DNA of 64,000 nt from Trypanosoma brucei (GCA_000002445.1 CM000207.1:2496001-2560000); one strand, 5' to 3'; positions 1-64,000 are shown, numbered from the stretch's first letter. Notes: a model not told the origin generated them from the sequence alone. Made by a program: numbers and translations.

Positions 1-3000
1 TGTCGCTTCACTTGTTCAAATGCATGTAAGAGAGCGTAATGGACATTAACTTCCCAGTCTAACCGGATGCGGTGCTAAAATGAAAAAATATGCATGAAGA
101 AACGAAAATATAAAGGCATTGGAATGCGGCCAGATGACTATATTGCTATTATCCTTATGCTTTCTCACATGGCTACCGGATATATCGCTTCTTTATCACT
201 TATAATATGAGAAATTGTCCACGGAGTTTGTGAGGGTACTGAAGTGTAGAAAAAGAAACTCATTGAATGATATCAGGAGAATACGAGTTGAAGTCTTCGG
301 GATGTGATAAAAAGTAAAGTGGTGGTAAATGCATGAAACGGAAAGTAGAGAAATAATGTGTAAGACACTTTCAAAAAAAGTGTAAAATACTTCTGATAGA
401 GTAAGAAATCGTACAGCGTATTTTTTACAAGCTCCACGCAGACATAATCCTGAGAGAATAACAACAGCAAATACGAAGAGAAAGAATTTATTTACTTATG
501 AATATGAAATAAGAAATATGAATATTCCATTTATTATTCCTTGAATGTGCAGTCGCCTGACTGAGTGTTGGAAACATGGATTCTAAAGAATACATATAGT
601 ATTTAAATGAAATGTAAGTGCAGTATCCTTCCCAAATGATCCTTAATAATTACACTTACATTATTATCGTTTTTCATTGTCCTCTACTTTACTTATTACT
701 GTCATTATCCCACATTCCATAGGTGTATATATATACACAACATCCCCTTTTATTTGCTTCCCCCATGCCTCACTCTGTTTCTGTTTTCTTTATGCAACTA
801 TTTTGGAGCTGCTTCCGATGTGCCACTGCAGAATGAAAAAATGCTCATTGGAACAAATGCATGAGTTTGCATATAAATATCACACATAATTTATTTTATA
901 TTCCGAGTGTTTGCAATATAATGGAAAACATGGAAAGGAAATGAATCAATGAATATGCGCCGCAGTTGTAAAAGGTTTGTGCTACTATTGTGCTTGCTTG
1001 TCTCAAAAACTCCTTCCCAATTGTTTGGTATGAAGCAAATTGTTGTAGCAGCTTAAATGAGAAAAAAGATACATAGTCCACTCTGTTTGTTCCAACAGCA
1101 ATTTATCCTTTTTCAAAATGCTTCACACCCAATACCAGAGAAAATTTACCTCTTTTTTTCTTGTCAGTACTGACATTCCTTCTTCGCAACGTACTCTGTA
1201 GAATTGGAAGTTTGAAACAATTGAAGGGACCTCCGCACACTCACGGAATGGCATCTGTTTTGCCTTCATAATGATAGTTTCATTCCTCCGCGGGTTGTGG
1301 CGTGATATCCTCCGCTTCTCCTCTTTGTTCCAGTTTTCGCGGTATTGGAGTCCATTCCCCCTCCCTTCATTCTTCCAATTAAATTATAAAGGTATCAAAT
1401 GAAAGGGCTTTGAGGGCACTCGGCATTGACGAAAACACTACGAAGTTATTATTCCCGATAGAATTTATTCGTGAAGTGTAAGATACAAAGGAGGCCAAGT
1501 AGAGAAAATAATACAACCCAAAATGTCAGGGAACACGGGTATTTATTAGGAATAAACGTAGAACCAACATGCGCAGGCATGATACAGCAAAGACAACAAT
1601 TTCGGCTAACATTTGTGTGCATGTTCAACTTTTACAACTGGAGAAATATTCACTACTAAAGTTTTCTCACAGTTGTAATGATAACAATGCGTGAAAACAC
1701 AGATACACGCTTCTCAAATGCATGATACAACCAGAGGTGTAAATAGCTCAAATGGTAGGATTCTCGACACATGTGGAAACGAATTAACTCAACTAGCAAT
1801 ATTTTAGTTATATCGAAGCCTTACCACAATCGGTTCAGCTAAAATACTTCAAACGAGTCCTTCAAAAACCCTGTTTGTTGATGCTTTTATTTATTTTATT
1901 CTGATGCCTGGTGAGCATATTTGGCTGCGATTGATTACTGCTGCACATGTTGGATGTGCGAAATCTTTCTCTAAATTCACAGAAATATATATCGTACCGT
2001 CTTTCATTTTGCTACTCCCTTACATTCTCACCAAACATACATAGATGATACCATAGTCATCATAGCTATTGAGGAAACTGATACCTTGGTCTTACATTGC
2101 CCTGATCGTGGCCGAAACTTGCAACTTGATTTATCGTGCCTTCCGCTATCCATGCTGGAAGTTGTGTTGTGTAATATTTTCCCTCCGAGTTATGAGGTGT
2201 GATAACTGTCAGTCCTTCAGTTGTGCCCTACCAATCGAATCCATCAGCACTATTTTATTGCATCTCCTCATTCACTTCCCCCTTTACACAGACATATTTC
2301 TACCATTAAAAGTTAAAATGTGACTCATAAGCGATGATGAGACCACACCGGGTTGTTTTGCAATTACCTCAGTAGCACCACATGAAAGCGAAGTGTTGGC
2401 TTTGCATTGCCCTTCTGTGCCAATAGTCGAAAACAGAAATATAGCGAGGAATGTTTGTTATTATTTGGAATCCTTTTATTGAGTGTGACTTTGGAATCGT
2501 AACATAATTGAAATAAACAGAGAATGTGCCATCCCTCCCTTCCCATTAATTTTCTAAATGTGCTGAGAGGAGATGAAAAGTGTTTTCAGTGTTTGAAGTT
2601 TTGACATTTCAGTGGCATAATACTTCAAGTTAGTGGAAATAAAATTGCATACCCAATGCCATTATGATGCAAATACATTCAACTGACAGCATTCAATCAT
2701 CTCATTGCCAAACTTTGTTTCAACTCTCAGAAATAATATTTTTAGTAGAAAACGGCTACCAAACATAAGTAATGGGAACTACTACATCAGGAAACCAGGA
2801 ATGAAAGCGACAACGCATCTCAACTCCTGAGCAGTCAGAAGCTTTAAGGGAACCATCAACTACTGAACAAAATAAACTCACCACCGTTACAATCACCGAA
2901 GAGACGCGCGACGCCAGAAATGATGAAACTGTGGTATCATTACTGAATGAGCATGAGAAATTGATTAAACAAACGAAACGGCTGGAAAGCAGTGTGAAGG

Positions 3001-6000
3001 CACTTAAATGTTTCATGAGTAATCTCACAGCTATGAGTGGCGAAAGGCAAGGTGGTGTGTGTGATGGCACCGAATGCATACGTGCGGTAACGTTGTATAA
3101 TGCTGCTGATAATGCCTTCAGTGACGAAGGACTACATGAAGGTGCTCTTTCCTCACTCTGTGGTCGCATTCTAGCTGAGAAATTAACCATCACAATGTCA
3201 GAAGGTGAGAAATTTGACTTACAAGGAGTCAGTGAGCTAAAGCAGTTGGAAGAGTTACGCATTGAATATCCACGTGGGCAAAGGTTCTCTACTAAAACTG
3301 TTTGCATCGTCCAAGCTGATAAAGGAGGTGAAGGTGTTATCAACTGGAGAAACGGTAGTTCGCGAAGAGATTAACTGCGAGAACTTAAAGGTCATATTTA
3401 CTCTAACTCAATAGCTGCTTCCAATGATAAGGCAAATTTTCAACATGGTGAAAGGGGTTCACAATTTCACTACTCTTTGGACCTGAGAAACCAGCTAAAG
3501 ATGTTGAATCATCTGGACTGCCGATGCCAATCAGTACCGTATGCGAACTCTTCGGAAAAACGGCACTTAGGGGAGTCAAAAAACTGTGTGCGAGAGCTGC
3601 GGCAGCTACAATAGTCAGGTTTCCAACCATGAAGACGCAGCTCTAATTCTGTTTTAGAATTTCTGAGTGCTATCGGATCGAAGGAAAACAGTTCCTGAAT
3701 TGCAGCAGTGCTTATAAACTCTTTGATGAGGCTTAATTGGGTTGGTCGCAGCTGCGTTGCTCGAGGGTTGGGGTGGTTCAAAGTAGATATCACATCCAAC
3801 ATGGTGGATAAGCAACTTCCCGCCTCACTGAACAAAAAAGATCATGACAACGACTATAGAGTTCGACGAACGTGGGATTGACGCGTGGGTTTCTTCGGGT
3901 GTCGGCGTTAGGCCGCATCCTATTTAGAGCGATGTAACGTTGAGCACGGAACTAAGTAAGAACAGAGGATCCAACGATAGTTTATTTCCCAGGAATCCGA
4001 TTCTCAAAGCGAAGGATTCGGACGTAAACAAACTGGGAGGTGCGCCGCAGCGGAGAAATAATGCTTGCGCGACAGCCGCTAAGATGCTATACGTAAGCGC
4101 TGGAGAAGACGGGGCACACGGCACTTGGATTGGGCATCTGGAAACCACAAGGCCTTATGTTGACGAGGAAAAATGGCCAACGATGCCAAGACCCAAAAGC
4201 CCCCGGGCCACACTGCACCCATTAAAAGAAGTATTGAAGCATGCTCACCAAACGACAAAATCAGAAAGAACAAGAATAGAGAGGCTTAAAGCAGCAGTTT
4301 TAGCTGAACGGTGCTCCGCGGAAGAAAGCGCCTACAGTCTTCCACCCCGGAATCGTCCACGAAAAGATAAACTACGGTGTCGCTCCTAGGAGATTCTCAT
4401 GTCTCTACCTGAAAGGGGGGAAGACGGAAAGCGCGAAAGCTGAAGCAGTGCAAATCATTGCTGGGGTTTCCTCAGACTCGAACAAACAAGACATGCTCAA
4501 AAAAGCACGACTGATATTTGTTTGAAAAGCGGCAAGCAAGAGGGCGACGGAATATTACATGCAATGAAGCGCCAAAAGGGGGCGCTTTTCAAGCATAATA
4601 AGCCGGCGATAGTCGCGAAACAACCCAATACTTGAATGGCTGAATTCAGTGGAGGGATGGTGCTCCGACACCAAAAATCAAGGTGTACTCCACACTTAAA
4701 GCTCCTTGGACATTGGCTCCAGAGTGTACACAAATTTGCCATACGTGGGTGGGTATAAAAGCAAACGCAAAAGACAAATGGAGGAGGGCTCATACGCCGA
4801 AAAAAATAGGGATATTCAGCAAGAAGGACTGAAACGTTTCAACAAATGAACTGGTGAGTTTAGGCAGTTAGTCCACTGCAGAAACGATAATCATCGGCAA
4901 CATGGAAGAATACAGGATTAAAGGGACACCTGAATATTGGGATGCAGTCATCGTGCAGAAGCAATGCTAATGGAAAAGGTGCTGAATACGCTACTGGAAA
5001 CAATGAAAGACAGAGTTTAGCGGAGGATTGAATCGCGGGCTGTGTATGGAAGGGTGGTTTTCACAGTCAGTAAAAAGAATGCGGTGATTTCTATGCAGCT
5101 TATTTTCTTCCACCACGTTGTTTGGAAAGACAGCGCAATAGCAGATGAGATTGCAGTGGAAGAATCAACTGCAGAAAGACACACCTAATATATAAAGTTG
5201 ATATTTTGGTGGGAGACATAAAGCAGAAGCGCAACAAAAGAACATGCTGTGCTCGAAGCTGGATTGGGGCGAAATACGCACAGGAGAAACTTTCTAGGCC
5301 CCATCGAGTCTCTACTAAAGAAGCGATCGCATGCCGGAATAAAAGAAATCTCGCCCTTTAACAATTTCATATTCACACCCCAGAAACAATTTGGCTAGAC
5401 CGGTGGAACAGCCTCGTTCCCTGATAAGTGTTTCAGCAAATATCGGTTGTACGACAGCCAAATTGATATTGTTGAAAAAAAGAAACAATATCCCGGAGAG
5501 CTTACCAATGAATTAAAAACGCTATTGATAGCCCCCAAGGCTAAGGCAGAGAGAGGTTTGCGATCCAGTGATAGGCACAGAATGTAACTTCATCGTCCAC
5601 TGATAAGGATAGACCATGAGTGACGTAGTTAAGGTACACGAGTGGGCAGAAGTGGCAGACGCATGGGAAGGCTTTAAAAGATGCTGTGAAATCCCTCGTG
5701 TGCGCCACGGATGCTATCAATGTGTTTTGTGTGAGTGTGGCACTCCCCGGAAATGTGAGAAACTTTAAAAAACATATAGACAGACGTGAGAAAGAAAGCA
5801 TAGTATGAAGAAAGAACAGAAAATAGGCCAAGAAAAACAGGTGTCATCGAGGAGAGTGTAACAAAATGCTCACTAAACCAGGAAAAGCGCCAACAACATG
5901 ACTAAACTTCTCTATTTCATTCAGCTACAAACATGAAGAAAGAACTCCGCATGGAAAAAATGTGAGGACGAAATACCAAAGTCATTAGAACGTTCGCAGC

Positions 6001-8097
6001 CAAGTGAAAAAATGAGAGATTCAGCTCAGTGCCATGTTCGTCCGTCATTTCAAAGAAGTATCTTCGGAGGTTTTGGTTTATAAGGAGCATGACGTCGGCG
6101 GGCGTTCTGGAAGGAAGGAAAAAGGGGAAGGAAGTTCCCAACTAAATAAGAAAAGAGACCTAGAAACCGTACATTCGTTTACCTCGGCGTCCTACACCGC
6201 AAACGCTGGGAAGGGAAAGGACACCAACGGGAGCTGCGGAGCAGCGTACAGGCCAATACAAGAAATCACAGCGGCTAGTCCCCAATTTCTAAAACTTCTA
6301 AACCAAATAAAACAGTTCCCATCACCGAAGGCGCCCGCGCATAAGGAAAGAACGAGGCTGCAACAACAAATGACAACCATTCATCACACTATTCTCCATT
6401 TTACCATCCGGAAGAAGTGCAGCACCGCATTCACCATGCTTCAGTATTACCAAACAAAGAATGACATTGCCAATATGCTCACATGATGGCCAAACACAAA
6501 CATTTCCAAAACAGGAAAGCCCAGTAAAAAAAAACCATTTAAAATAAAAAACAAACTGTAACGCAACAACGTCATACTAAAAGGGAAACAATATATTCGA
6601 ATCAATAATTATAATAGTCGAAATAAATAGTTAACACAAACATAAATACAAAAAAATCATTTAAAATAATAGAGCAAACAAACATAATTACGCACCACTA
6701 TGTTATTTTCTTTTTCCAACAGCATTGCAATCAAACTATTTACGGCAACATTCCGCCAATTTTAGATGCTGGTACACAATGTTCCTCACGGCGTATTGTT
6801 GTGCAAAACAGTGTTACCATGCAATTCGCAACCTTTTTGTACTCAAAAAACACGCCTTTCTGTACAACATGCTCCATGCGGGATAATTGATGCACAAAAT
6901 GTGCATTTTGTGCCATAATAGAAAATGCAATAGTAGGCAATAAGGCGTATTTGATGTATGGGCTTCGATTTCGTATCTATTTTTGCTTAAACCACTTTGC
7001 TGTTGTTCGGTGAAAGGTGTCGAGGACAACTGGGGTTACAATTGGTGCCGCTTTTGAGTGGTATAGAGGAGAAAAGCCACCGCTGAATACGCTTGTCTCA
7101 AGTTCTGCTTACCGCAGGTGTTACCGGCCGTGCCCGATTGTTTCCGTTGGCCATCTTCGTGTGCTTTGTTACTAGAAACTTCATATCTGCATCTGTTCAC
7201 AGTTTCTGGCCAAACTTCGTTTTCCATCTACAAAGTTATCCCTATCTTGCCCATGGAGCTTTCTGATAAACTGAAAGCACATATCTTTTCTATGAATTAG
7301 CATCCCTTCGCGAACTTACTACTAAACATTTGGTTTCCGCCATCACATTAAAAACCGCAGTGTCAACCATTTTCGGTGTTACATTTATACATTCTTGAGT
7401 TATTTACGGCAAATAATCTCCTCTCGTGTCATTTTTCTCTTTCTGCTATAATTTCACGCACTCTCTTGTTCTATTCTATATTTCTATTTCTTTAGTTTTA
7501 ATCTTCTGTTTTTATCACTGCAAATATCATCTCGACTTCTTTGGCTTCTGCACTGGATTCTCTCTTTCCCTCATATCATTGCATATAATAATACCAATCA
7601 TCATGTTTGTGCTTGAAGTTGCGCGCATTCCATCTCCCTTTACCTCGATCCTCCTCACTCACTTACTGTCCCACTTACCCACTTTCACTCATTGAACTCT
7701 TTTAACTCTTGTAACTCTTATAACTCTCCTAAGTGTTTTATTTTCCCTATTACTTAGGTCTTTAAAACCTCAATTCTTATAATATTGCTTCTATTGTTAT
7801 AATGCCCTCAACCACTGTTACCATTACTATAGCCATAACCCTTAAATACTCTCAATACTCATAATATCAACAAATAATAAAAATAGACCATATTAGAATA
7901 GCACTCATTTTTCATTCCATATTATTACAGTGCCTTGCTCCTATAGGCCACGATCATAACAAAACTACGTATTTTTCATATTCTCAAAAATTTATAAATC
8001 TTCACATTTTCATGAAAAAGTGTTAAAATATAGTAAAATCTCATAAAATAGGAATTTTCATAAATTTTCATGAAATTGCGTAAAAATCCTTAAAATG

Positions 8098-8470
8098 CTT
8101 ATATTGCTACGAAAAGCACAATGGAAGCAACAGTCAGAGAAAACTTCTTATTGACAAGAAAACTGGAATCTTTGCAAGTGTTTTCAATCCATCCACAAAC
8201 AGCTTTGTCACCTGAATTTACATTCTTGTTTTCCGCTTCGCATTCCTCCTTCTTATTATGCTTGGAGCACCTTGACTCAGTTTTCTCGCCTTTCCCATCT
8301 TATTTCAGTGTCTGGTGTGCCGCTTTTGTTGACTCCCCCTTATCCAATTTGCACTTCTTTTTGCCACCTTCTTCTTCAACTTTGCATGGGGGTTTGCATT
8401 CATCTCCTGTTCCTTTTGCTTCGCAAGTTGCGTCTGTTTCGGTGACTTTTGTTCTCGCTATCTGGGACTT
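8098..8470 (-). pseudogene. Orphan VSG C-terminal domain and GPI-signal fragment on the minus strand, opposite to every other VSG in the window
   Basis: Reverse-complement translation gives ...TCEAKGTGDECKPPCKVEEEGGKKKCKLDKGE... and then CKDSSFLVNKKFSLTVASIVLFVAI-stop. A 16-mer-like TATATTTTAACAC lies downstream on the minus strand (plus-strand gtgttaaaatata near 8021-8034). Confidence 0.6.
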
Positions 8471-9181
8471 GGTTTGAGCGCCGGCTACATTCTTTTGTAG
8501 GTTGGTTTTTTTTTCCCTCGCGCAACCGTCAGGACCATGCAGTTGGTACACACCTGATGGTAAGGAGGAAATGCATTTATGCACACCACACCACGAGGAC
8601 GCGGTGATAGCGTGGAATTCAACGCTGGAGACCGGCGTTCCTACTCACTAAAAGACCCTGTTTTTTTTTTTTGAAGAATTGATACCCACAAGTTGGCGAC
8701 CGCATGTGCGCGTTTCTAGGGAAGCGGTCTCCATTTGACGCCCGTTCGATCCCTCCCACGTTGCGTGAACCATGTTTACCATATCTTTCCGCCTCCCCGG
8801 ATGGAGATTTTATCAGGGATTTTGGTTCCCCACCTGAGCATGGCACTGAACCGTGGTGGAAAACTAAGTAATGGTTCTCTCCCCACGGAGCGGTCGCACC
8901 ATATCCGGTGTTGCGGCCGCTGTTTGGATGGAACATTTGACTTCCCAGTTTATTTCTCTTCTGGTACTGGATCCTGGCGCCATATTGAAGCAGATCTATC
9001 CTTAGTGTAAGCTAAATACTCGCAGCCAGATGGGATAGATCTCGGTATTATCTGCGACGAGCACTCTACTTAACCACTAAACCAAGGTAGACAAGGCTCT
9101 TACCCATCCGAAAACGACCCCCGTGCCTGTGAAGGAGCAGAAATAAAAATATTGTGGGCTCGTAGAATAGGAAAAAAGGAG

Positions 9182-10620
9182 ATGATGATGCGCGCTACAA
9201 CGGTGGCTTCCTTACTAGTTTTAACTTTGCATGCAACAAGGCAAACTGCTGCAAACAAAAAAGCAATCAAAGTACAAGGATTTGTGAAGATGTGCACGCT
9301 TTCCAAAAATCTCAGACCGTGCAGGCGTACGCAACCAATAGACTAAAAAAATGGAAGATGATGATTGCAGATCTCAATGATCTCTGCGAGGACCTAACAA
9401 TTCTAAACAAAAAGTAGCGAAAAGTGCCTGAAGTCGCGACACCAGCTTTAATAAGGCTCTTAAGGCATGAGGCAAAAGCGTTAGAACACAAGTATCAGAC
9501 CCTGGAAGAAACAGCACCACTGGCGGGCTCACTTTCGGCACAGGCAGCAGGGGCAATGGACGAAGCAGCAGCTACTTTCTACGCAGCAACCAAAAACGGC
9601 GGCAGCGGCAAATACTACCTTGACCAGGACGGAACGGCCAACAAACTGGCCACAGCAACAGATCTAGCAGGATTCATGACCGAAGAAAGCGCCCCAGTAG
9701 CAGCAGCAGCAGACACAGCGGCAGTCGAAGTCAAGCCGTCCGATATAACAACCGCAGCGGGCACGGGAAGTGACTGCTTACTCACGCAAACGGACAGCAA
9801 TGGCGGTTATATCAACAGTGACGGCATGACCACGGGCATCAAATGGGCCGGCGGCCTTCTAACGTTCAGCACGAACCAATTAACAAACAATCCCTGGACT
9901 GATACGTCAGCGGCGTTAGCGACAGCACCGGTGCTAGAGCAGGCGGCACGACAGCTGGCAACCATATCAACAAAGTGGAGCCACACGAGCGCCGCAATAG
10001 ATAACCTCCTAAAACTCAAAAAGCCCACCGAACAAACTTTCACTGACATCGAGACCAACGAAAATGTCCTGAACCCTGGAGGCAACGACAAGGCACTAAA
10101 GGTAACAAAGGAACAACTAGAGCAGATCAGGCAAAAAGTAAATAATTACAGAGAACCACTCGCCCGTGACGGGAAACTAGACTCAAGCAGAAATAGTTTT
10201 CACCTCCAAGAACTGACGACAAACACTACAGTTACAATTGAAAAAGTCACCGCAGAATGCAACAAACACACTCAGGGAAAGCAAAGCTACGAGACAAAGG
10301 AAGAAGAATGTAATAAGGCAAAAGACAAAAAAAGTGAATGTGGAAAAAAAACTGGGTGCACTTACGACGGCAGTAAGCCAGCTGGCAAAAAATGAACATT
10401 GAGTGAAGAAACCAAACCAAGCATCGGCAAGAGAAACAGCAAACCAAGAAATAGAAGGAAATGATGAGAAAAAAGGGGAGAAATTTGCAGGGAAAGAACA
10501 AAAATACTGAAAAGATAGCTTCAAATGTAAAGGAAAAAGTGCAGGGATCTCGGTTTTCTCATCAATAAGAATTCTGCTCTGAGTATGGCTGCTGTTTTTG
10601 TGAGCTTTGTAGCATTTTAA
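9182..10620 (+). pseudogene. VSG: VSG pseudogene: signal peptide and N-terminal domain intact in places, frameshifted, degenerate C-terminus and GPI signal
   Basis: A true ATG at 9182 gives MMMRATTVASLLVLTLHATRQTAANKKAIKVQGF (signal peptide). The long ORF 9424-10395 is Ala/Thr-rich and ends in a Cys-rich C-terminal domain (CNKHTQGK...ECNKAKDKKSECGKKTGC). A decayed GPI tail ...GISVFSSIRILL follows, then a degenerate 16-mer near 10692. Confidence 0.7.
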
Positions 10621-10689
10621 GAATTTTAAGGATTACTGCTCAATTTATTGAAATTTATGAAATTTTGCTATATTTCTTTATTTATCTTT

Positions 10690-10800: not shown

Positions 10801-13285
10801 GGTAAAAAGTAAATGAGTGGTGAATATAAAAGATTTTAAACAATATAATGGTCGAAATGGACGTAAGTGAGTAAAAGAGATAACACGATTAATGTTATTA
10901 GAGAAAACACGGAAATACAGAAAGAGAGATGGTATATTGAACAGAAGCAGTTTCAAATATGAATATGGATAGGGGCATCATTATACACAACGAGATGACG
11001 AATGGAAAAATAAGGGAGAGACAAAGTTCAGTGACCAGGTTAACTTCTGGCGCTATGTTATGTGCAAAGTATCGGAAGTTAGCGGAAAGATAGAAACAAA
11101 AATAGAAACCGAAACACATGTATCTGTGACCGCCACTGTTTCAGAGAATTTACAACCTAAAGAATGTATTATTTTCTTCAATATGAGACCGTCACTAGAA
11201 GTAAATTGCATAGAATGTTTTTTACCCAATGAATCAGCTACTGGTTGCAGTTAAATTCTCTTAAACTAGCAAAAACAGCACCAAAGTTTGAAAGACTGGC
11301 AGTAAACGGAAATACGCAATGAAGTATAAACGTTGAGAACAAAAAAAGGTTGCATTGCTTCAAAAGTAGCTAAGACACACTGACACTTAGTATCCCTTTA
11401 CACTCGAGGTAATTGTCAAGATTATTGAATAGAATCAAGTATTTTGTTGTTTTTCTAGAACGAAGACAGGTAGAGACGTGGAAAGTGCATCCCAAATGAC
11501 GGAAGCAGTAAACTGAAAACAAGATGACTTAGTAGAGGTTGATTGAATCTACCTTAGTTTATAGAAACCACAGTAGTCTAGCTGTTTCATACAAGGTTCT
11601 TGTTTCCCTAAAGCTTTCGGTCTCGCTATGTTTAAAAGGAGTCAAAATATAGCACACAAATATAAAAATAAATATCTCAAATGGAAGAAACAGGAGCACT
11701 TAAGTTACGAAGGGAAGTAGTCTCAAGGAAACTAGTAGCACCGACTCTTCTTCAATGTTCATAACGTCCATACGAAAAAAAAGATGAAACACATATAGTA
11801 TGGACCTGAATTGGCTGTACAGTTAGAAGGTGTGACTACAAAGGAAATTAAAAATGATCGGTGCGATCAACCGGCAAGCCTCAAAAAAAACATATTTCAC
11901 TCAAAGCTGGATAGATACAGAAACGGAGATAATGGTGACGATCATGTTTTTAATCCGTTTGGAGTTTCTAATATAAAGTTATAGATACCCAGAAATGTAT
12001 TGGATAATTGTGAGGTGCTATAAAAATTTCTTATGGTATTTAGTAATAATGGAAAACATTGTTGGAAACAATATAATATTATCGGAAGGAGAACTTTACA
12101 TATAGAATTGCTAATGGATGACAGTGGAAAGGAAAAATAAAGCAAAGAAAGTGATTAACACAGGATGTTTATGGAGGAATTATTTATGAATTAGAGGGAA
12201 TTAACAGCAACATTCCTGTAATTTCGTATTGATATACTGGACACGCATTAGGATATTTCAAGGAACAAGTAATCTATATAAAAGCAGTCAATGGTGAACA
12301 AATGACGGTTGCCATTAACAAGTTAATCCAATAAACAAAAGCTCCCAAAGCACAAATGTCCAGTTATTAATAGAAAGAGGAACATCCACGCCTAGGATTT
12401 CGAACAAAAGAAAAAAGCTAACCTTTTTTTTGTAAAAATAAGCAATGTTACATTGTTATTCGACCTGCGGCACCTGGAGCCAATATTGCAGTAAGTAAAA
12501 CAAGCGAACGCCATTGAGGTTAAAAATTTAAGATATAGAGGCTTTTTAGATTATTTGCAAAAACATAAGGGTTTAGTGGTAGAGGAATAAATGAAAAATT
12601 TGATACGCCTGCAGCGGCAGTGGACAAGATTAGTGTAAGTGACTCTAAGTGAGATACAAAGAAACATGACAGAAACTGCCGGCACCAACGTTTAACAGAA
12701 CGCATTTTCCGACCGATTCGGAGGTTCATATCCGCGTTTGAACTTCAACGTCAGAAATCCTACAACAGCAACAGAAACCCATAATTAAACAGCAGAGAAG
12801 CAACAGCCTGTAGTACCTGCGCAGTTTCGAACAAATGTTGCGGCGTGCGCGAACCAGAGTGACATCGAAAACATAAGTTTTCAAAGCGCTATCATCGATC
12901 CACACAAAAGAACAACCAAAATGGAAATTCACAACGGCTTATTCAGAGGCGCTATCCAAAGCCCTGACCACTGCCCGTCGCTGGCAAATGCAGCAATAAC
13001 TGGCTGAGAACCAGCGGTCAAAGGGAAGGAAATGCAATATGAAAAGGGAGCTGTCCACGATCCACGTCATCGCCAACAAACACTTTTCTTTGAACCACAA
13101 AACCGCACAAGACAACGGTAATGCCCTCAGGAAGAGACAGGATAGACCTACAGATCGAATAGCTGTCTCCCTAACCACACAAAAAACCAAGGTGGATACT
13201 CTTAACTTACAAAAATTCACTTTAGGAAAGCGAAACACAGCAAGGTCTAGAGATTCTAAGGGAAAAAGCCCAGAAGTCCGCAGTT

Positions 13286-23900: not shown

Positions 23901-24927
23901 TCGACTACCAAGCGGACTACCAAAATTGGAGCACTTAAACAATGTGAAAATGGAGCGGAAGTGAGAGGGAGTTATAGAGAACGAGAACTATTATTTTTAA
24001 ACTAAATACAGAAATTTAAAGAAGAAAGAAGTGATATACATGGACTTTTTTATCACTGTGCGGATTCACGGCTATCGTGGCTACCTTACACTAGTAATGA
24101 GGAAGAAATGTGTCTATGCACATCATATAACATGGCGTGATAGTGTGAGATTCAGCCTTGGAGAACAAGCCACTATCCACCAAAGCCTCCTCATGTGGAG
24201 ATTATTACCAACCAACTTCGCAAACAGATGGTAAACACAACACGGCCACCGTTCTATATACATGGTCTCCATTGCAGGACGCGGCACCACATATAGCTGG
24301 TGCGGCATCTCACCCTGTAAATTTACCACTTGCTCTACAGCTAATGACACGTATACAACTTCGATGGGTTTCCCTTGGACAGGGTACTTAACCCCAAAGC
24401 ATGAAGTATTCACTTTTTCTCAGATTGAGTTGCGCTTCACACAAATAAATATCTTCAACGTCCAAAAGTGCACTCACTATGGCACCACAGCAATCACTTA
24501 CCCCGGTAGATATACCAGTTTTCACGTCGTAACAGTTAGCCTCCGCAAAAAATTTTTATTCTTCCTCGGTACAAGACCCTGACACCACAATGAGGTTGCT
24601 ACCACTAACGCCAGGGGGTTGACGGTGCTTGGAATAGAAAGGATAAAAGTGATAGACCAGTAATTTGATACTTGGAAGAAGCTAAAAGTATTTAGATTTT
24701 TGCAACACACTCTTAAGGAGGGGTCTAAAGATGAATAAAAACTGACACAGTCCAGAAGCCATGGTGCAGAAACTTTCTCGACCAAAATGCATATCTCGTC
24801 AACGGCAAACCAAGAAATCTTAATACACCAACACCTCTCTAGTACCTAGTCAAGGAAAAGTGGAGCAGACCAACGAGGTGCAAAACTTCGAAACGAAAAC
24901 ACAACCTTCTCTTGGTGCACAGCGGTG

Positions 24928-63518: not shown

Positions 63519-64000
63519 CCCTAGCGATGCCGGCCACCTCAACGTGGTGCCAGGGTCCATTACCCCGTATCATCGGGGGAAGCCAAGAGCCAGCAGAGTT
63601 CCTTTCATGGGGAACACTGCTGTGCTCCGGCTACGGCATCATACAGCACAGGGATCAGCAGCGTCTTGCTGGGACACCGTTTTTCATTTGTCGGTCCCTG
63701 GGCACGTGGCTAGCGTGCCATCAGCAGTATCATCCGCACTAAGATGCTGCTGTCCGGTGATGTGGAAGAGAATCCCGGCCCGTCGTTGCGCGGGATGCAG
63801 TGGAACTGCGCCGGGCTATCTCAAGGAAAGAGATTAGCACTCCACAAAACCCTTGTTGATGAGCGGATCGCCTTTTGTCTGTTGAGCGAGACAAGGATGA
63901 CGCTTGGAGAGGCGGCTTTCTTTAGCGTTGCTGACTACCAACATCATGGAATAGCTCGTAACTGCAAAGGAGGTGGTGTATCAATACTAGTGAGGGAGGA
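63519..64000 (+). mobile_element. ingi: Second ingi copy (5' end, + strand) running off the end of the window
   Basis: From 63526 the sequence GATGCCGGCCACCTCAACGTGGTGCCAGGG... is the reverse complement of 48591-48620. From about 63742 it encodes MLLSGDVEENPGPSLRGMQWNCAGLSQGKRLALHKTLVDERIAFCLLSETRMTLGEAAFFSVADYQHHGIARNCKGGGVSILVRE. Confidence 0.9.

What the first reader, a model, noticed from the sequence alone, without database searches (positions are those of the whole stretch)
7590..9150. Array boundary and orientation switch with an unexplained GC-richer structured segment
A minus-strand VSG 3' fragment lies at 8098-8470 with a minus-strand 16-mer at 8021-8034. Inverted 70-bp-like and telomere-like sequence lies at 7740-7870, and inverted post-70-bp purine block at 7590-7700. 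Together these show a leftward-pointing cassette remnant meeting the rightward array at about 8.5-9.1 kb. The intervening 8480-9150 is compositionally distinct (GC-richer, no VSG similarity). It contains T9 (8508-8516) and T12 (8655-8666) tracts on the + strand and a B-box-like GTTCGATCC (8748-8756). It could be a retroposon relic with a poly(A) on the minus strand, a Pol III-type small RNA with an oligo-T terminator, or a strand-switch-region element.
Basis: partly seen in the sequence, partly recalled or inferred. Interest (0 to 1): 0.5.

Follow-up and report, generated by a model that had tools for sequence, protein, structure and literature searches.

The report
Dead TbSIDER2 retroposon beside VSG array
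The "unexplained" GC-richer segment is a full-length but long-dead copy of TbSIDER2, a short retroposon family of Trypanosoma brucei described in 2007; it lies backwards between an inverted scrap of a surface-coat (VSG) gene and the first gene of a VSG array, so the finding is ordinary.

Summary
Window 8506-9087, read on the minus strand, is a complete 582-bp TbSIDER2 element. TbSIDER2 is a short interspersed degenerate retroposon of the ingi clade (Bringaud 2007).

- **Match to the family:** it aligns end to end with seven published TbSIDER2 copies. Identity is 80-86% to each and 89.5% to their consensus. A profile built from those copies hits it at E = 2e-175.
the T9 tract (really 8506-8514) is the element's poly(A) tail. 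The T12 tract (really 8661-8672) is an internal A-run conserved across the family. The "B-box" GTTCGATCC (really 8744-8752) is a family-conserved stretch read antisense.
- **Rejected readings:** no tRNA, no Rfam family and no coding remnant is present. The Pol III small-RNA idea is rejected.
- **Surroundings:** the leftward VSG cassette remnant (about 7330-8505, minus strand) and the rightward array starting at ATG 9182 are real. The "telomere-like" sequence is not.
- **Activity:** the element has no target-site duplication, and its second 5' hallmark has lost the CGTG promoter motif. It is best read as an inert relic.
- **Junction:** its two flanks were not originally contiguous, so a later rearrangement ended at or near it.
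- **Origin of the window:** T. brucei TREU927 chromosome 9 (v4) 2,496,001-2,560,000.

Already known; low interest.

The parts
8506..9087 (-). Full-length TbSIDER2 retroposon (582 bp, GC 49.7%)
   Evidence: Aligns end to end with 7 published TbSIDER2 copies: 80-86% identity to each and 89.5% to their consensus. A profile of the published copies hits 9086-8505(-) at E = 2.4e-175, covering model positions 2-572.
9008..9087 (-). First Pr77 / '79-bp signature' hallmark (CCTTGGTTTAGTGGTTAAGTAGAG...)
   Evidence: Aligns with the first hallmark of the published TbSIDER2 copies. PMC4035085 states that TbSIDER2 carries two hallmarks in tandem. The boundary with the second hallmark is approximate.
8926..9007 (-). 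Second Pr77 hallmark (CACTAAGGATAGATCTGCTTCAATATGGCGCCAGGATCCAGTAC...); the DPE motif CGTG is mutated to TATG
   Evidence: The pattern TGGYGCCAGGRTCCAGTAC gives 4 hits in the window against 0 expected; two of the others are ingi 5' ends and one is the TbSIDER1 hallmark at 24.5 kb. A profile built only from Leishmania LmSIDER2 hits 8988-8964 at E = 0.046, the fourth-best hit in the window, with noise starting at E = 5.7. DPE comparison.
8661..8672 (-).
   Evidence: All 7 published copies have an A-rich run at this alignment position. Exact coordinates.
8506..8514 (-).
   Evidence: Aligns with the A-rich 3' ends of the published copies, after the conserved GCGCGAGGG. Coordinates.
8744..8752 (+). 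B-box-like GTTCGATCC, which is the antisense reading of the family-conserved GGGATCGAAC
   Evidence: The stretch is conserved, with substitutions, across the published copies (GGAATCGAAC, GGGATCGAAT and similar). There is no tRNA and no Rfam family.
8101..8505 (-). VSG C-terminal-domain pseudogene fragment (about 135 codons, one internal stop, GPI signal ...SSFLVNKKFSLTVASIVLFVAI*), abutting the retroposon's poly(A) end
   Evidence: tblastn. nhmmer to 10 other VSG 3' ends. Translation.
8020..8035 (-). VSG 3'UTR 16-mer (TACTATATTTTAACAC, 2 mismatches)
7330..8019 (-). Remainder of the leftward cassette: post-VSG region, 70-bp-like repeat (about 7730-7870), purine-rich block (about 7590-7700) and downstream flank homology (about 7330-7580)
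   Evidence: Inverted nhmmer matches to the equivalent regions of plus-strand cassettes. GC skew.
9088..9181 (+). 94-bp spacer between the retroposon's 5' end and the VSG start codon; unique in the window
   Evidence: The nhmmer query 9008-9182, which includes this spacer, finds only itself.
9182..10626 (+). First VSG of the rightward array: an A-type pseudogene with a frameshift near 9300
   Evidence: tblastn with P0002 and P0003. Pfam Trypan_glycop. Homologues.

Best explanation
Window 8506-9087 is a complete copy of TbSIDER2 on the minus strand. TbSIDER2 is an extinct, non-coding, non-autonomous retroposon of the trypanosomatid ingi clade.

Origin (inferred from the literature on the family): an RNA was transcribed from the internal Pr77 promoter at the element's 5' end. 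The endonuclease and reverse transcriptase of an autonomous ingi4-type element (Tbingi or a now-dead DIRE) then copied it into DNA by target-primed reverse transcription. This left the two tandem 5' hallmarks at one end and a poly(A) tail at the other.

Shown here: family membership, orientation, completeness, the identity of the T tracts as A tracts, about 10.5% divergence from the family consensus, no target-site duplication, and loss of the CGTG core-promoter motif in the second hallmark.

Inferred: the copy is inert today. Its 3' flank is a truncated minus-strand VSG 3' end and its 5' flank is the upstream region of a plus-strand VSG. These were not one continuous target, so a later recombination, gene conversion or inversion in this VSG-array border had an endpoint at or next to the element.
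For: - **Alignment to the family:** end-to-end alignment to 7 TbSIDER2 sequences printed in Additional file 1 of PMC4035085. Identity is 80-86% to each and 89.5% to their consensus. The published range of divergence from the consensus is 8-13.7% (PMC2323293).
- **Profile search:** a profile of the published copies gives E = 2.4e-175 and is full length.
- **Length:** 582 bp, against the published 558-587 bp.
- **Hallmarks:** two tandem hallmarks, as described for TbSIDER2. The signature is also recovered independently by a Leishmania-only profile and by a pattern search.
- **Composition:** GC 49.7% against 41.1% for the window, as reported for trypanosome retroposons.
- **No other identity:** no coding remnant, no protein homologue, no Pfam family, no tRNA or Rfam family.
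- **Location:** outside the directional gene clusters at a VSG-array border, as for 95.5% of TbSIDERs.
- **Source genome:** the window is TREU927 chr9, shown by a 615/615 exact match to a printed TbSIDER1 locus. TREU927 is the genome in which the family was defined.
Against: - No 12-bp target-site duplication is recognisable; the best match is 5/12 (flank sequences, compared by eye).
- The ingi4 upstream motif scores only 6/10, which random positions reach 23% of the time.
- This copy is not one of the seven printed ones. I could not check whether it is among the 12 counted in 2007.
- Inertness is inferred from sequence decay and from published in-vitro data on another TbSIDER2 copy, not measured at this locus.
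Confidence: 0.96

Rival explanations
1. A Pol III-transcribed small RNA gene on the plus strand, using the B-box-like GTTCGATCC as an internal promoter and the T9 or T12 tract as a terminator.
For: GTTCGATCC is present at 8744-8752, and T9 and T12 tracts are present on the plus strand. Folding 8520-8654 on the plus strand gives a mildly low energy, z = -2.66.
Against: ARAGORN finds no tRNA. Rfam finds nothing better than a chance miRNA hit at E = 0.62. Both T tracts lie upstream of the B-box-like motif on the plus strand, so they cannot terminate a transcript it would drive. All three features are conserved positions of a minus-strand retroposon family.
Confidence: 0.01
2. A RIME element or a fragment of an ingi or DIRE element.
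For: It shares the 5' signature core with the two ingi 5' ends in the window and has a poly(A) end.
Against: Outside a 25-nt signature core there is no similarity to the complete ingi at 43.4-48.6 kb. There is no blastx similarity to the ingi ORF. The segment matches TbSIDER2 over its whole length.
Confidence: 0.01
3. An ordinary, shared part of VSG upstream regions (cassette flank) rather than a mobile-element copy.
For: A related element, TbSIDER1, sits in the same orientation a few hundred bases upstream of another plus-strand VSG, at 24046-24616. The printed TbSIDER1-beta copies on chr9 and chr11 share their flanks, so SIDERs can travel by segmental duplication along with cassette flanks.
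Against: 8480-9150 matches nothing else in the 64-kb window except the 3' part of that TbSIDER1. The seven published TbSIDER2 copies have unrelated flanks, and six of them lie on four other chromosomes.
Confidence: 0.02
4. A retroposon relic that has acquired a function at the array border. Examples would be a residual Pr77 promoter driving leftward transcription through the inverted cassette, a source of siRNAs, or a preferred recombination substrate.
For: Pr77 hallmarks activate Pol II transcription in T. cruzi, and retroposons accumulate at strand-switch regions (PMC4748587). The element lies exactly at the junction of oppositely oriented VSG sequences, and its two flanks are non-contiguous.
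Against: The CGTG DPE, which is essential for L1Tc Pr77 activity, is TATG in this copy's second hallmark. The tested TbSIDER2 ribozyme was inactive in vitro. The copy is about 10.5% diverged from the family consensus. The hallmark region shows no fold stability. No expression data are available here.
Confidence: 0.08

Closest known systems
TbSIDER2 (T. brucei short interspersed degenerate retroposon 2; Bringaud et al. 2007, PMC2323293; sequences in Sanchez-Luque et al. 2014, PMC4035085)
   Same: Two tandem Pr77 hallmarks, an internal A-run, the conserved 3' module, an A-rich tail, length, GC content and non-coding nature. Divergence from the consensus is 10.5%. Location is outside the directional gene clusters.
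   Different: It is not identical to any of the seven printed copies (at most 86%). It has no recognisable TSD. The internal A-run is longer (A12). The CGTG motif of the second hallmark is lost.
TbSIDER1 / TSIDER1 (Bringaud et al. 2011, PMC3820030)
   Same: A short non-coding ingi-clade retroposon of the same size. The copy at window 24046-24616 has the same orientation and a similar position upstream of a VSG. The 3' region is homologous: window 8554-8738 against 24091-24276 gives E of about 1e-6, and the TbSIDER2 profile hits TbSIDER1-alpha at 2.4e-14.
   Different: It has a single hallmark, a different central body, and a different upstream insertion motif (ingi6 type).
RIME / ingi (Tbingi)
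   Same: The 5' signature core, the poly(A) tail, and the presumed use of the ingi4-type retrotransposition machinery.
   Different: No other sequence similarity. RIME copies are young, with about 4% divergence, and are flanked by 12-bp TSDs.
Leishmania SIDER2
   Same: Two tandem 5' hallmarks, a length of about 550-600 bp and an A-rich end.
   Different: The Leishmania elements are massively expanded and sit in 3'UTRs, where they destabilise mRNAs. The T. brucei family has about 12 copies with no known role.

Membership tests
TbSIDER2 | Nucleotide similarity over the whole length to published members, within the family's range of divergence from its consensus (8-13.7%) | tested here: met
   80-86% identity to each of 7 printed copies over about 570 aligned bases, and 89.5% to their consensus. 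Profile E = 2.4e-175, model positions 2-572.
TbSIDER2 | Two tandem Pr77 / 79-bp signatures at the 5' end (first ~161 nt) | tested here: met
   9087-8926(-) aligns with both hallmarks of the published copies. The second hallmark is also found by a Leishmania-only profile at E = 0.046 and by a pattern search with 0 hits expected.
TbSIDER2 | Adenosine-rich 3' end | tested here: met
   A9 at 8514-8506 follows the conserved GCGCGAGGG.
TbSIDER2 | Length 558-587 bp, with no coding capacity | tested here: met
   582 bp. Stop codons in all frames and no blastx hit to the ingi ORF. The 105-aa ORF has no homologue and no Pfam family.
TbSIDER2 | Upstream ingi4 insertion motif AxxxxxxxTxxxGTxGGxTxxx^xTxTxxTxxxxx (PMC3820030) | tested here: inconclusive
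   The best score is 6 of 10 specified positions, allowing shifts of up to 3 nt. Random window positions reach 6 or more 23% of the time.
TbSIDER2 | Flanking 12-bp target-site duplication. This is a mark of an undisturbed insertion, not a family-defining feature: only one published TbSIDER2 retains a degenerate one. | tested here: not met
   The 5' flank GAGCCTTGTCTA against the 3' flank CCAACCTACAAA/CAACCTACAAAA gives at best 5/12 (flanks, compared by eye). The flanks belong to different, oppositely oriented VSG units.
TbSIDER2 | GC content above the genome background; location outside directional gene clusters | tested here: met
   GC 49.7% against 41.1%. The element lies at the border of a VSG array on TREU927 chr9.
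RIME / ingi | Body identical to the 5' and 3' ends of ingi | tested here: not met
   Only a 25-nt signature core aligns with the window's complete ingi.
tRNA or other Pol III small RNA gene | A cloverleaf or other recognised covariance model, with internal A and B boxes upstream of an oligo-T terminator | tested here: not met
   ARAGORN finds 0 genes. Rfam has no hit at E <= 0.6. Both T tracts lie upstream of the B-box-like motif on the plus strand.
HDV-like ribozyme (L1TcRz type) within Pr77 | A stable nested double-pseudoknot fold and self-cleavage | not testable with these tools
   The MFE of 9007-8929(-) is no better than shuffled sequence, z = +0.8, and there is no Rfam ribozyme hit. The published TbSIDER2(162)Rz construct was inactive in vitro. 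Cleavage by this copy was not assayed.

The most novel reading that the evidence does not exclude
The TbSIDER2 copy is the physical breakpoint of the rearrangement that placed an inverted VSG 3' cassette against the first gene of the chr9 array. On this reading, old retroposon relics act as recombination endpoints that shape VSG-array borders, and the copy may still provide a weak Pr77-driven leftward transcription start.
Probability: 0.15. Interest if true: 0.3.

Novelty: already known. Interest (0 to 1): 0.08.

Why it matters
It matters little beyond correct annotation. The segment is a member of a retroposon family described in 2007, and it sits in the reference genome in which that family was defined. 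Identifying it removes a false lead (a Pol III small RNA or a novel strand-switch element). It also shows that the T tracts and the B-box-like motif are by-products of reading a retroposon backwards. The one point of modest interest is that the element's flanks are non-contiguous. That marks a rearrangement endpoint at the border between non-VSG subtelomeric DNA and a VSG array.

Tried and rejected
- **My first reading (RIME):** rejected. blastn of 8480-9150 against the window found only itself, and the complete ingi in the window shares only the signature core.
- **My second estimate of the 5' end (9007, a single hallmark, 500 bp):** wrong. Alignment with the published copies moved it to 9087, with two hallmarks.
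- **Protein searches:** these led nowhere for the element. The 105-aa ORF has no homologue and no Pfam family.
- **Fetching orthologous T. brucei loci:** this failed. Exact look-ups for the 323-aa, 325-aa (P0001), 150-aa and 514-aa products are not on record. The only locus obtained, L001 from T. b. equiperdum chr1, is a paralogous LRRP region sharing 512 bp with the window. It carries an unrelated signature-bearing element.
- **Supplements of PMC2323293:** they contain only Leishmania data, although their first 50 alignment columns served as an independent signature profile.
- **TSD and ingi4-motif searches:** negative or non-significant.
at most a marginal signal.

Full report
**The observation**

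I read 7200-9800 directly and profiled its composition.

- The minus-strand VSG 3' fragment is real. tblastn with VSG proteins places C-terminal-domain similarity at 8063-8476 on the minus strand.
- nhmmer matches 8101-8459, inverted, to the 3' ends of ten plus-strand VSG cassettes in the window, with E down to 2.5e-23.
- One reading frame runs from 8505 to a typical GPI-signal end (...SSFLVNKKFSLTVASIVLFVAI*) with a single internal stop.
- The 16-mer is at 8020-8035 on the minus strand with 2 mismatches. Twelve of the other 13 hits are on the plus strand from 14.7 kb onwards; the 13th (11639-11654) is a weak 3-mismatch hit on the minus strand.
- 7590-8100 matches, inverted, the post-VSG regions of eight plus-strand cassettes. 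7330-7580 matches the flanks beyond them.
- The T tracts are at 8506-8514 (T9) and 8661-8672 (T12), and GTTCGATCC is at 8744-8752. These are 2-6 bases from the stated positions.
- There is no telomere hexamer in 7700-7900, so "telomere-like" is not supported.
- The segment is GC-richer: 0.48-0.55, against 0.41 for the window.

**What the segment is**

Read on the minus strand, 9007-8964 carries the core of the "79-bp signature" (Pr77 hallmark) that begins all ingi-clade retroposons of trypanosomatids.

- The degenerate 19-mer TGGYGCCAGGRTCCAGTAC occurs four times in the window against zero expected. One occurrence is at the 5' end of a complete ingi (its APE-RT-RNase H-zinc finger ORF is 43821-48401). 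Another is at a second ingi cut off by the window end. A third is at 24.5 kb.
- A profile built only from the first 50 alignment columns of 79 Leishmania major SIDER2 copies (PMC2323293 supplement) ranks the same four sites first. Their E-values are 3e-9, 2e-5, 6e-4 and 0.046, and noise begins at 5.7.
- I first took the element for RIME. That is wrong: apart from 25 nt of signature it does not resemble the window's ingi.

The literature then gave the answer.

- Bringaud et al. 2007 (PMC2323293) described 22 short degenerate retroposons in T. brucei: ten TbSIDER1 and twelve TbSIDER2. They are 558-587 bp long, with the signature at the 5' end and an A-rich 3' end. They are GC-richer than the genome, extinct, and 95.5% of them lie outside the directional gene clusters.
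- Sanchez-Luque et al. 2014 (PMC4035085) print full sequences in their Additional file 1.
- Aligned with the seven printed TbSIDER2 copies, the window sequence matches from its first base to its poly(A). The element is 9087 to 8506 on the minus strand, 582 bp.
- It is 80-86% identical to each copy and 89.5% identical to their consensus. That is as close as the printed copies are to one another (78-94% pairwise). It also falls inside the published 8-13.7% divergence range.
- A profile HMM of the seven printed copies hits 9086-8505(-) at E = 2.4e-175 over model positions 2-572.
- The element has two tandem hallmarks, at about 9087-9008 and 9007-8926, exactly as reported for TbSIDER2.

All three are properties of this family read backwards.

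- T9 is the poly(A) tail.
- T12 is an internal A-run present in every published copy.
- GTTCGATCC is the antisense of the conserved GGGATCGAAC block.

There is no tRNA and no Rfam family; the best hit is a chance miRNA match at E = 0.62. There is no coding remnant, no homologue of the 105-aa ORF and no Pfam family. On the plus strand both T tracts lie upstream of the B-box-like motif, so they could not terminate a transcript driven by it. Folding of 8520-8654 is marginal: z = -2.66 on the plus strand and -1.53 on the sense strand. The hallmark region has no special stability, z = +0.8.

**Where the window comes from**

The second SIDER in the window (24046-24616, minus strand) is a TbSIDER1. 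Together with its printed flanks it matches 615 of 615 bases of "Tb927_09_v4:2,520,024..2,520,638". The offset is exactly 2,496,000. The window is therefore T. brucei TREU927 chromosome 9 (v4) 2,496,001-2,560,000, and the TbSIDER2 is at 2,504,506-2,505,087 on the complementary strand. This is the genome in which the family was defined. I could not check whether this copy is one of the twelve counted in 2007; it is not one of the seven printed in 2014.

**Surroundings and history**

- Tiling the first 13 kb against the whole window shows that 1-7.3 kb is unique, non-VSG sequence.
- That left region contains a plus-strand fragment of a leucine-rich-repeat-protein pseudogene at 2771-3282. The ORF within it is 85% identical at the protein level to a T. 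b. equiperdum protein, and the stretch is 91% identical at the DNA level to that protein's locus L001.
- From 9182 rightwards the window is a plus-strand VSG array.
- Between the two lies an inverted cassette remnant of about 1.2 kb (7330-8505). Its truncated VSG coding sequence runs straight into the retroposon's poly(A).
- On the other side, only 94 unique bases separate the retroposon's 5' end from the ATG of the first plus-strand VSG, a frameshifted A-type pseudogene.
- No 12-bp target-site duplication is recognisable; the best match is 5/12. The ingi4 upstream motif reported for TbSIDER2 scores 6/10, which 23% of random positions reach.
- The two flanks belong to oppositely oriented units. 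They therefore cannot be the two halves of one target site. Some later recombination, gene conversion or inversion ended at or next to the element. Which event it was cannot be decided without other strains.

**How it works, or rather worked**

By the established model for this clade (PMC3820030, PMC4035085, PMC4748587), an RNA starting at the Pr77 internal promoter was reverse-transcribed at a nicked target by the machinery of an ingi4-type autonomous element. This copy is now about 10.5% diverged from the family consensus. The CGTG downstream promoter element that is essential in L1Tc Pr77, and retained in four of the seven printed copies, is TATG here. The tested TbSIDER2 ribozyme construct was inactive in vitro. 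I conclude that it is an inert relic. That conclusion is inferred, not measured.

**Comparison, novelty and score**

This is a member of a known family in a reference genome, so it is already known. The most novel reading not excluded is that the relic served as the recombination endpoint that built this array border, or that it keeps weak promoter activity. I give that about 0.15 probability and modest interest.

Noticed in passing
window 24046-24616 (minus strand): A TbSIDER1 retroposon lies between the 70-bp/purine block of one plus-strand VSG cassette and the next VSG (ORF from 24925). With its flanks it is identical to the published Tb927_09_v4:2,520,024..2,520,638 copy, which fixes the origin of the window.
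   Followed up: yes
window 8554-8738 vs 24091-24276; published SIDER sequences (PMC4035085 Additional file 1): TbSIDER2 and SIDER1 elements share clear homology well beyond the 5' signature. A TbSIDER2 profile hits T. vivax SIDER1 at E = 3.6e-27 (model 218-574) and TbSIDER1-alpha at 2.4e-14. Bringaud et al. 2011 state that TSIDER1 has no similarity to other trypanosomatid transposable elements apart from the signature. The best-conserved block (GAGTCCCACACTACCA...TGGCGTGGTGTGCGTAAATGCATTTCCTCC) can form a hairpin that is kept across both families, with one compensatory pair. It may be a shared 3' recognition module.
   Followed up: partly
published flanks of TbSIDER1-beta copies, including window 24024-24045 and 24617-24638: TbSIDER1 copies on chr9 (2.52 Mb and 3.01 Mb) and chr11 (4.59 Mb), in both TREU927 and Lister 427, share nearly identical 5' and 3' flanking sequence. 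These copies therefore spread by segmental duplication together with VSG-cassette flanks, not by independent retrotransposition.
   Followed up: partly
window 43370-48627 (minus strand): A complete ingi element with an uninterrupted 1526-aa ORF (endonuclease, reverse transcriptase, RNase H, C2H2 zinc finger) lies inside the VSG array. It could be a retrotransposition-competent copy.
   Followed up: partly
window 63519-64000 (plus strand): The 5' end of a second ingi element, cut off by the window end. It has the signature at 63545-63563, and 85 codons from 63744 are 96% identical to the other ingi ORF. Because the hit lies about 200 nt past the signature, RIME is unlikely.
   Followed up: partly
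window 2771-3282 (plus strand): A fragment of a leucine-rich repeat protein (LRRP) pseudogene. It is 91% identical in DNA to a T. b. equiperdum chr1 gene (DPX39_010006400). The rest of 1-7.3 kb has no long ORF and no repeat elsewhere in the window.
   Followed up: partly
L001 19670-20200 (T. b. equiperdum CM010672.1, about 43.1 kb): Another Pr77-type signature (E = 0.0019 with the Leishmania profile) is followed about 520 bp later by an A-rich stretch. It is unrelated in its body to either SIDER in the window. It may be a DIRE 5' end or a further short degenerate retroposon.
   Followed up: no
window 9087-9020 (minus strand) and the TbSIDER2 consensus: The first hallmark of TbSIDER2 carries, in sense orientation, an A-box-like TTTAGTGGTTAAG and, about 30 nt downstream in the consensus, a B-box-like GGATCGATCCCC (degenerate in this copy). 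This resembles tRNA spacing. ARAGORN finds no tRNA, and I did not pursue whether the resemblance means anything.
   Followed up: no
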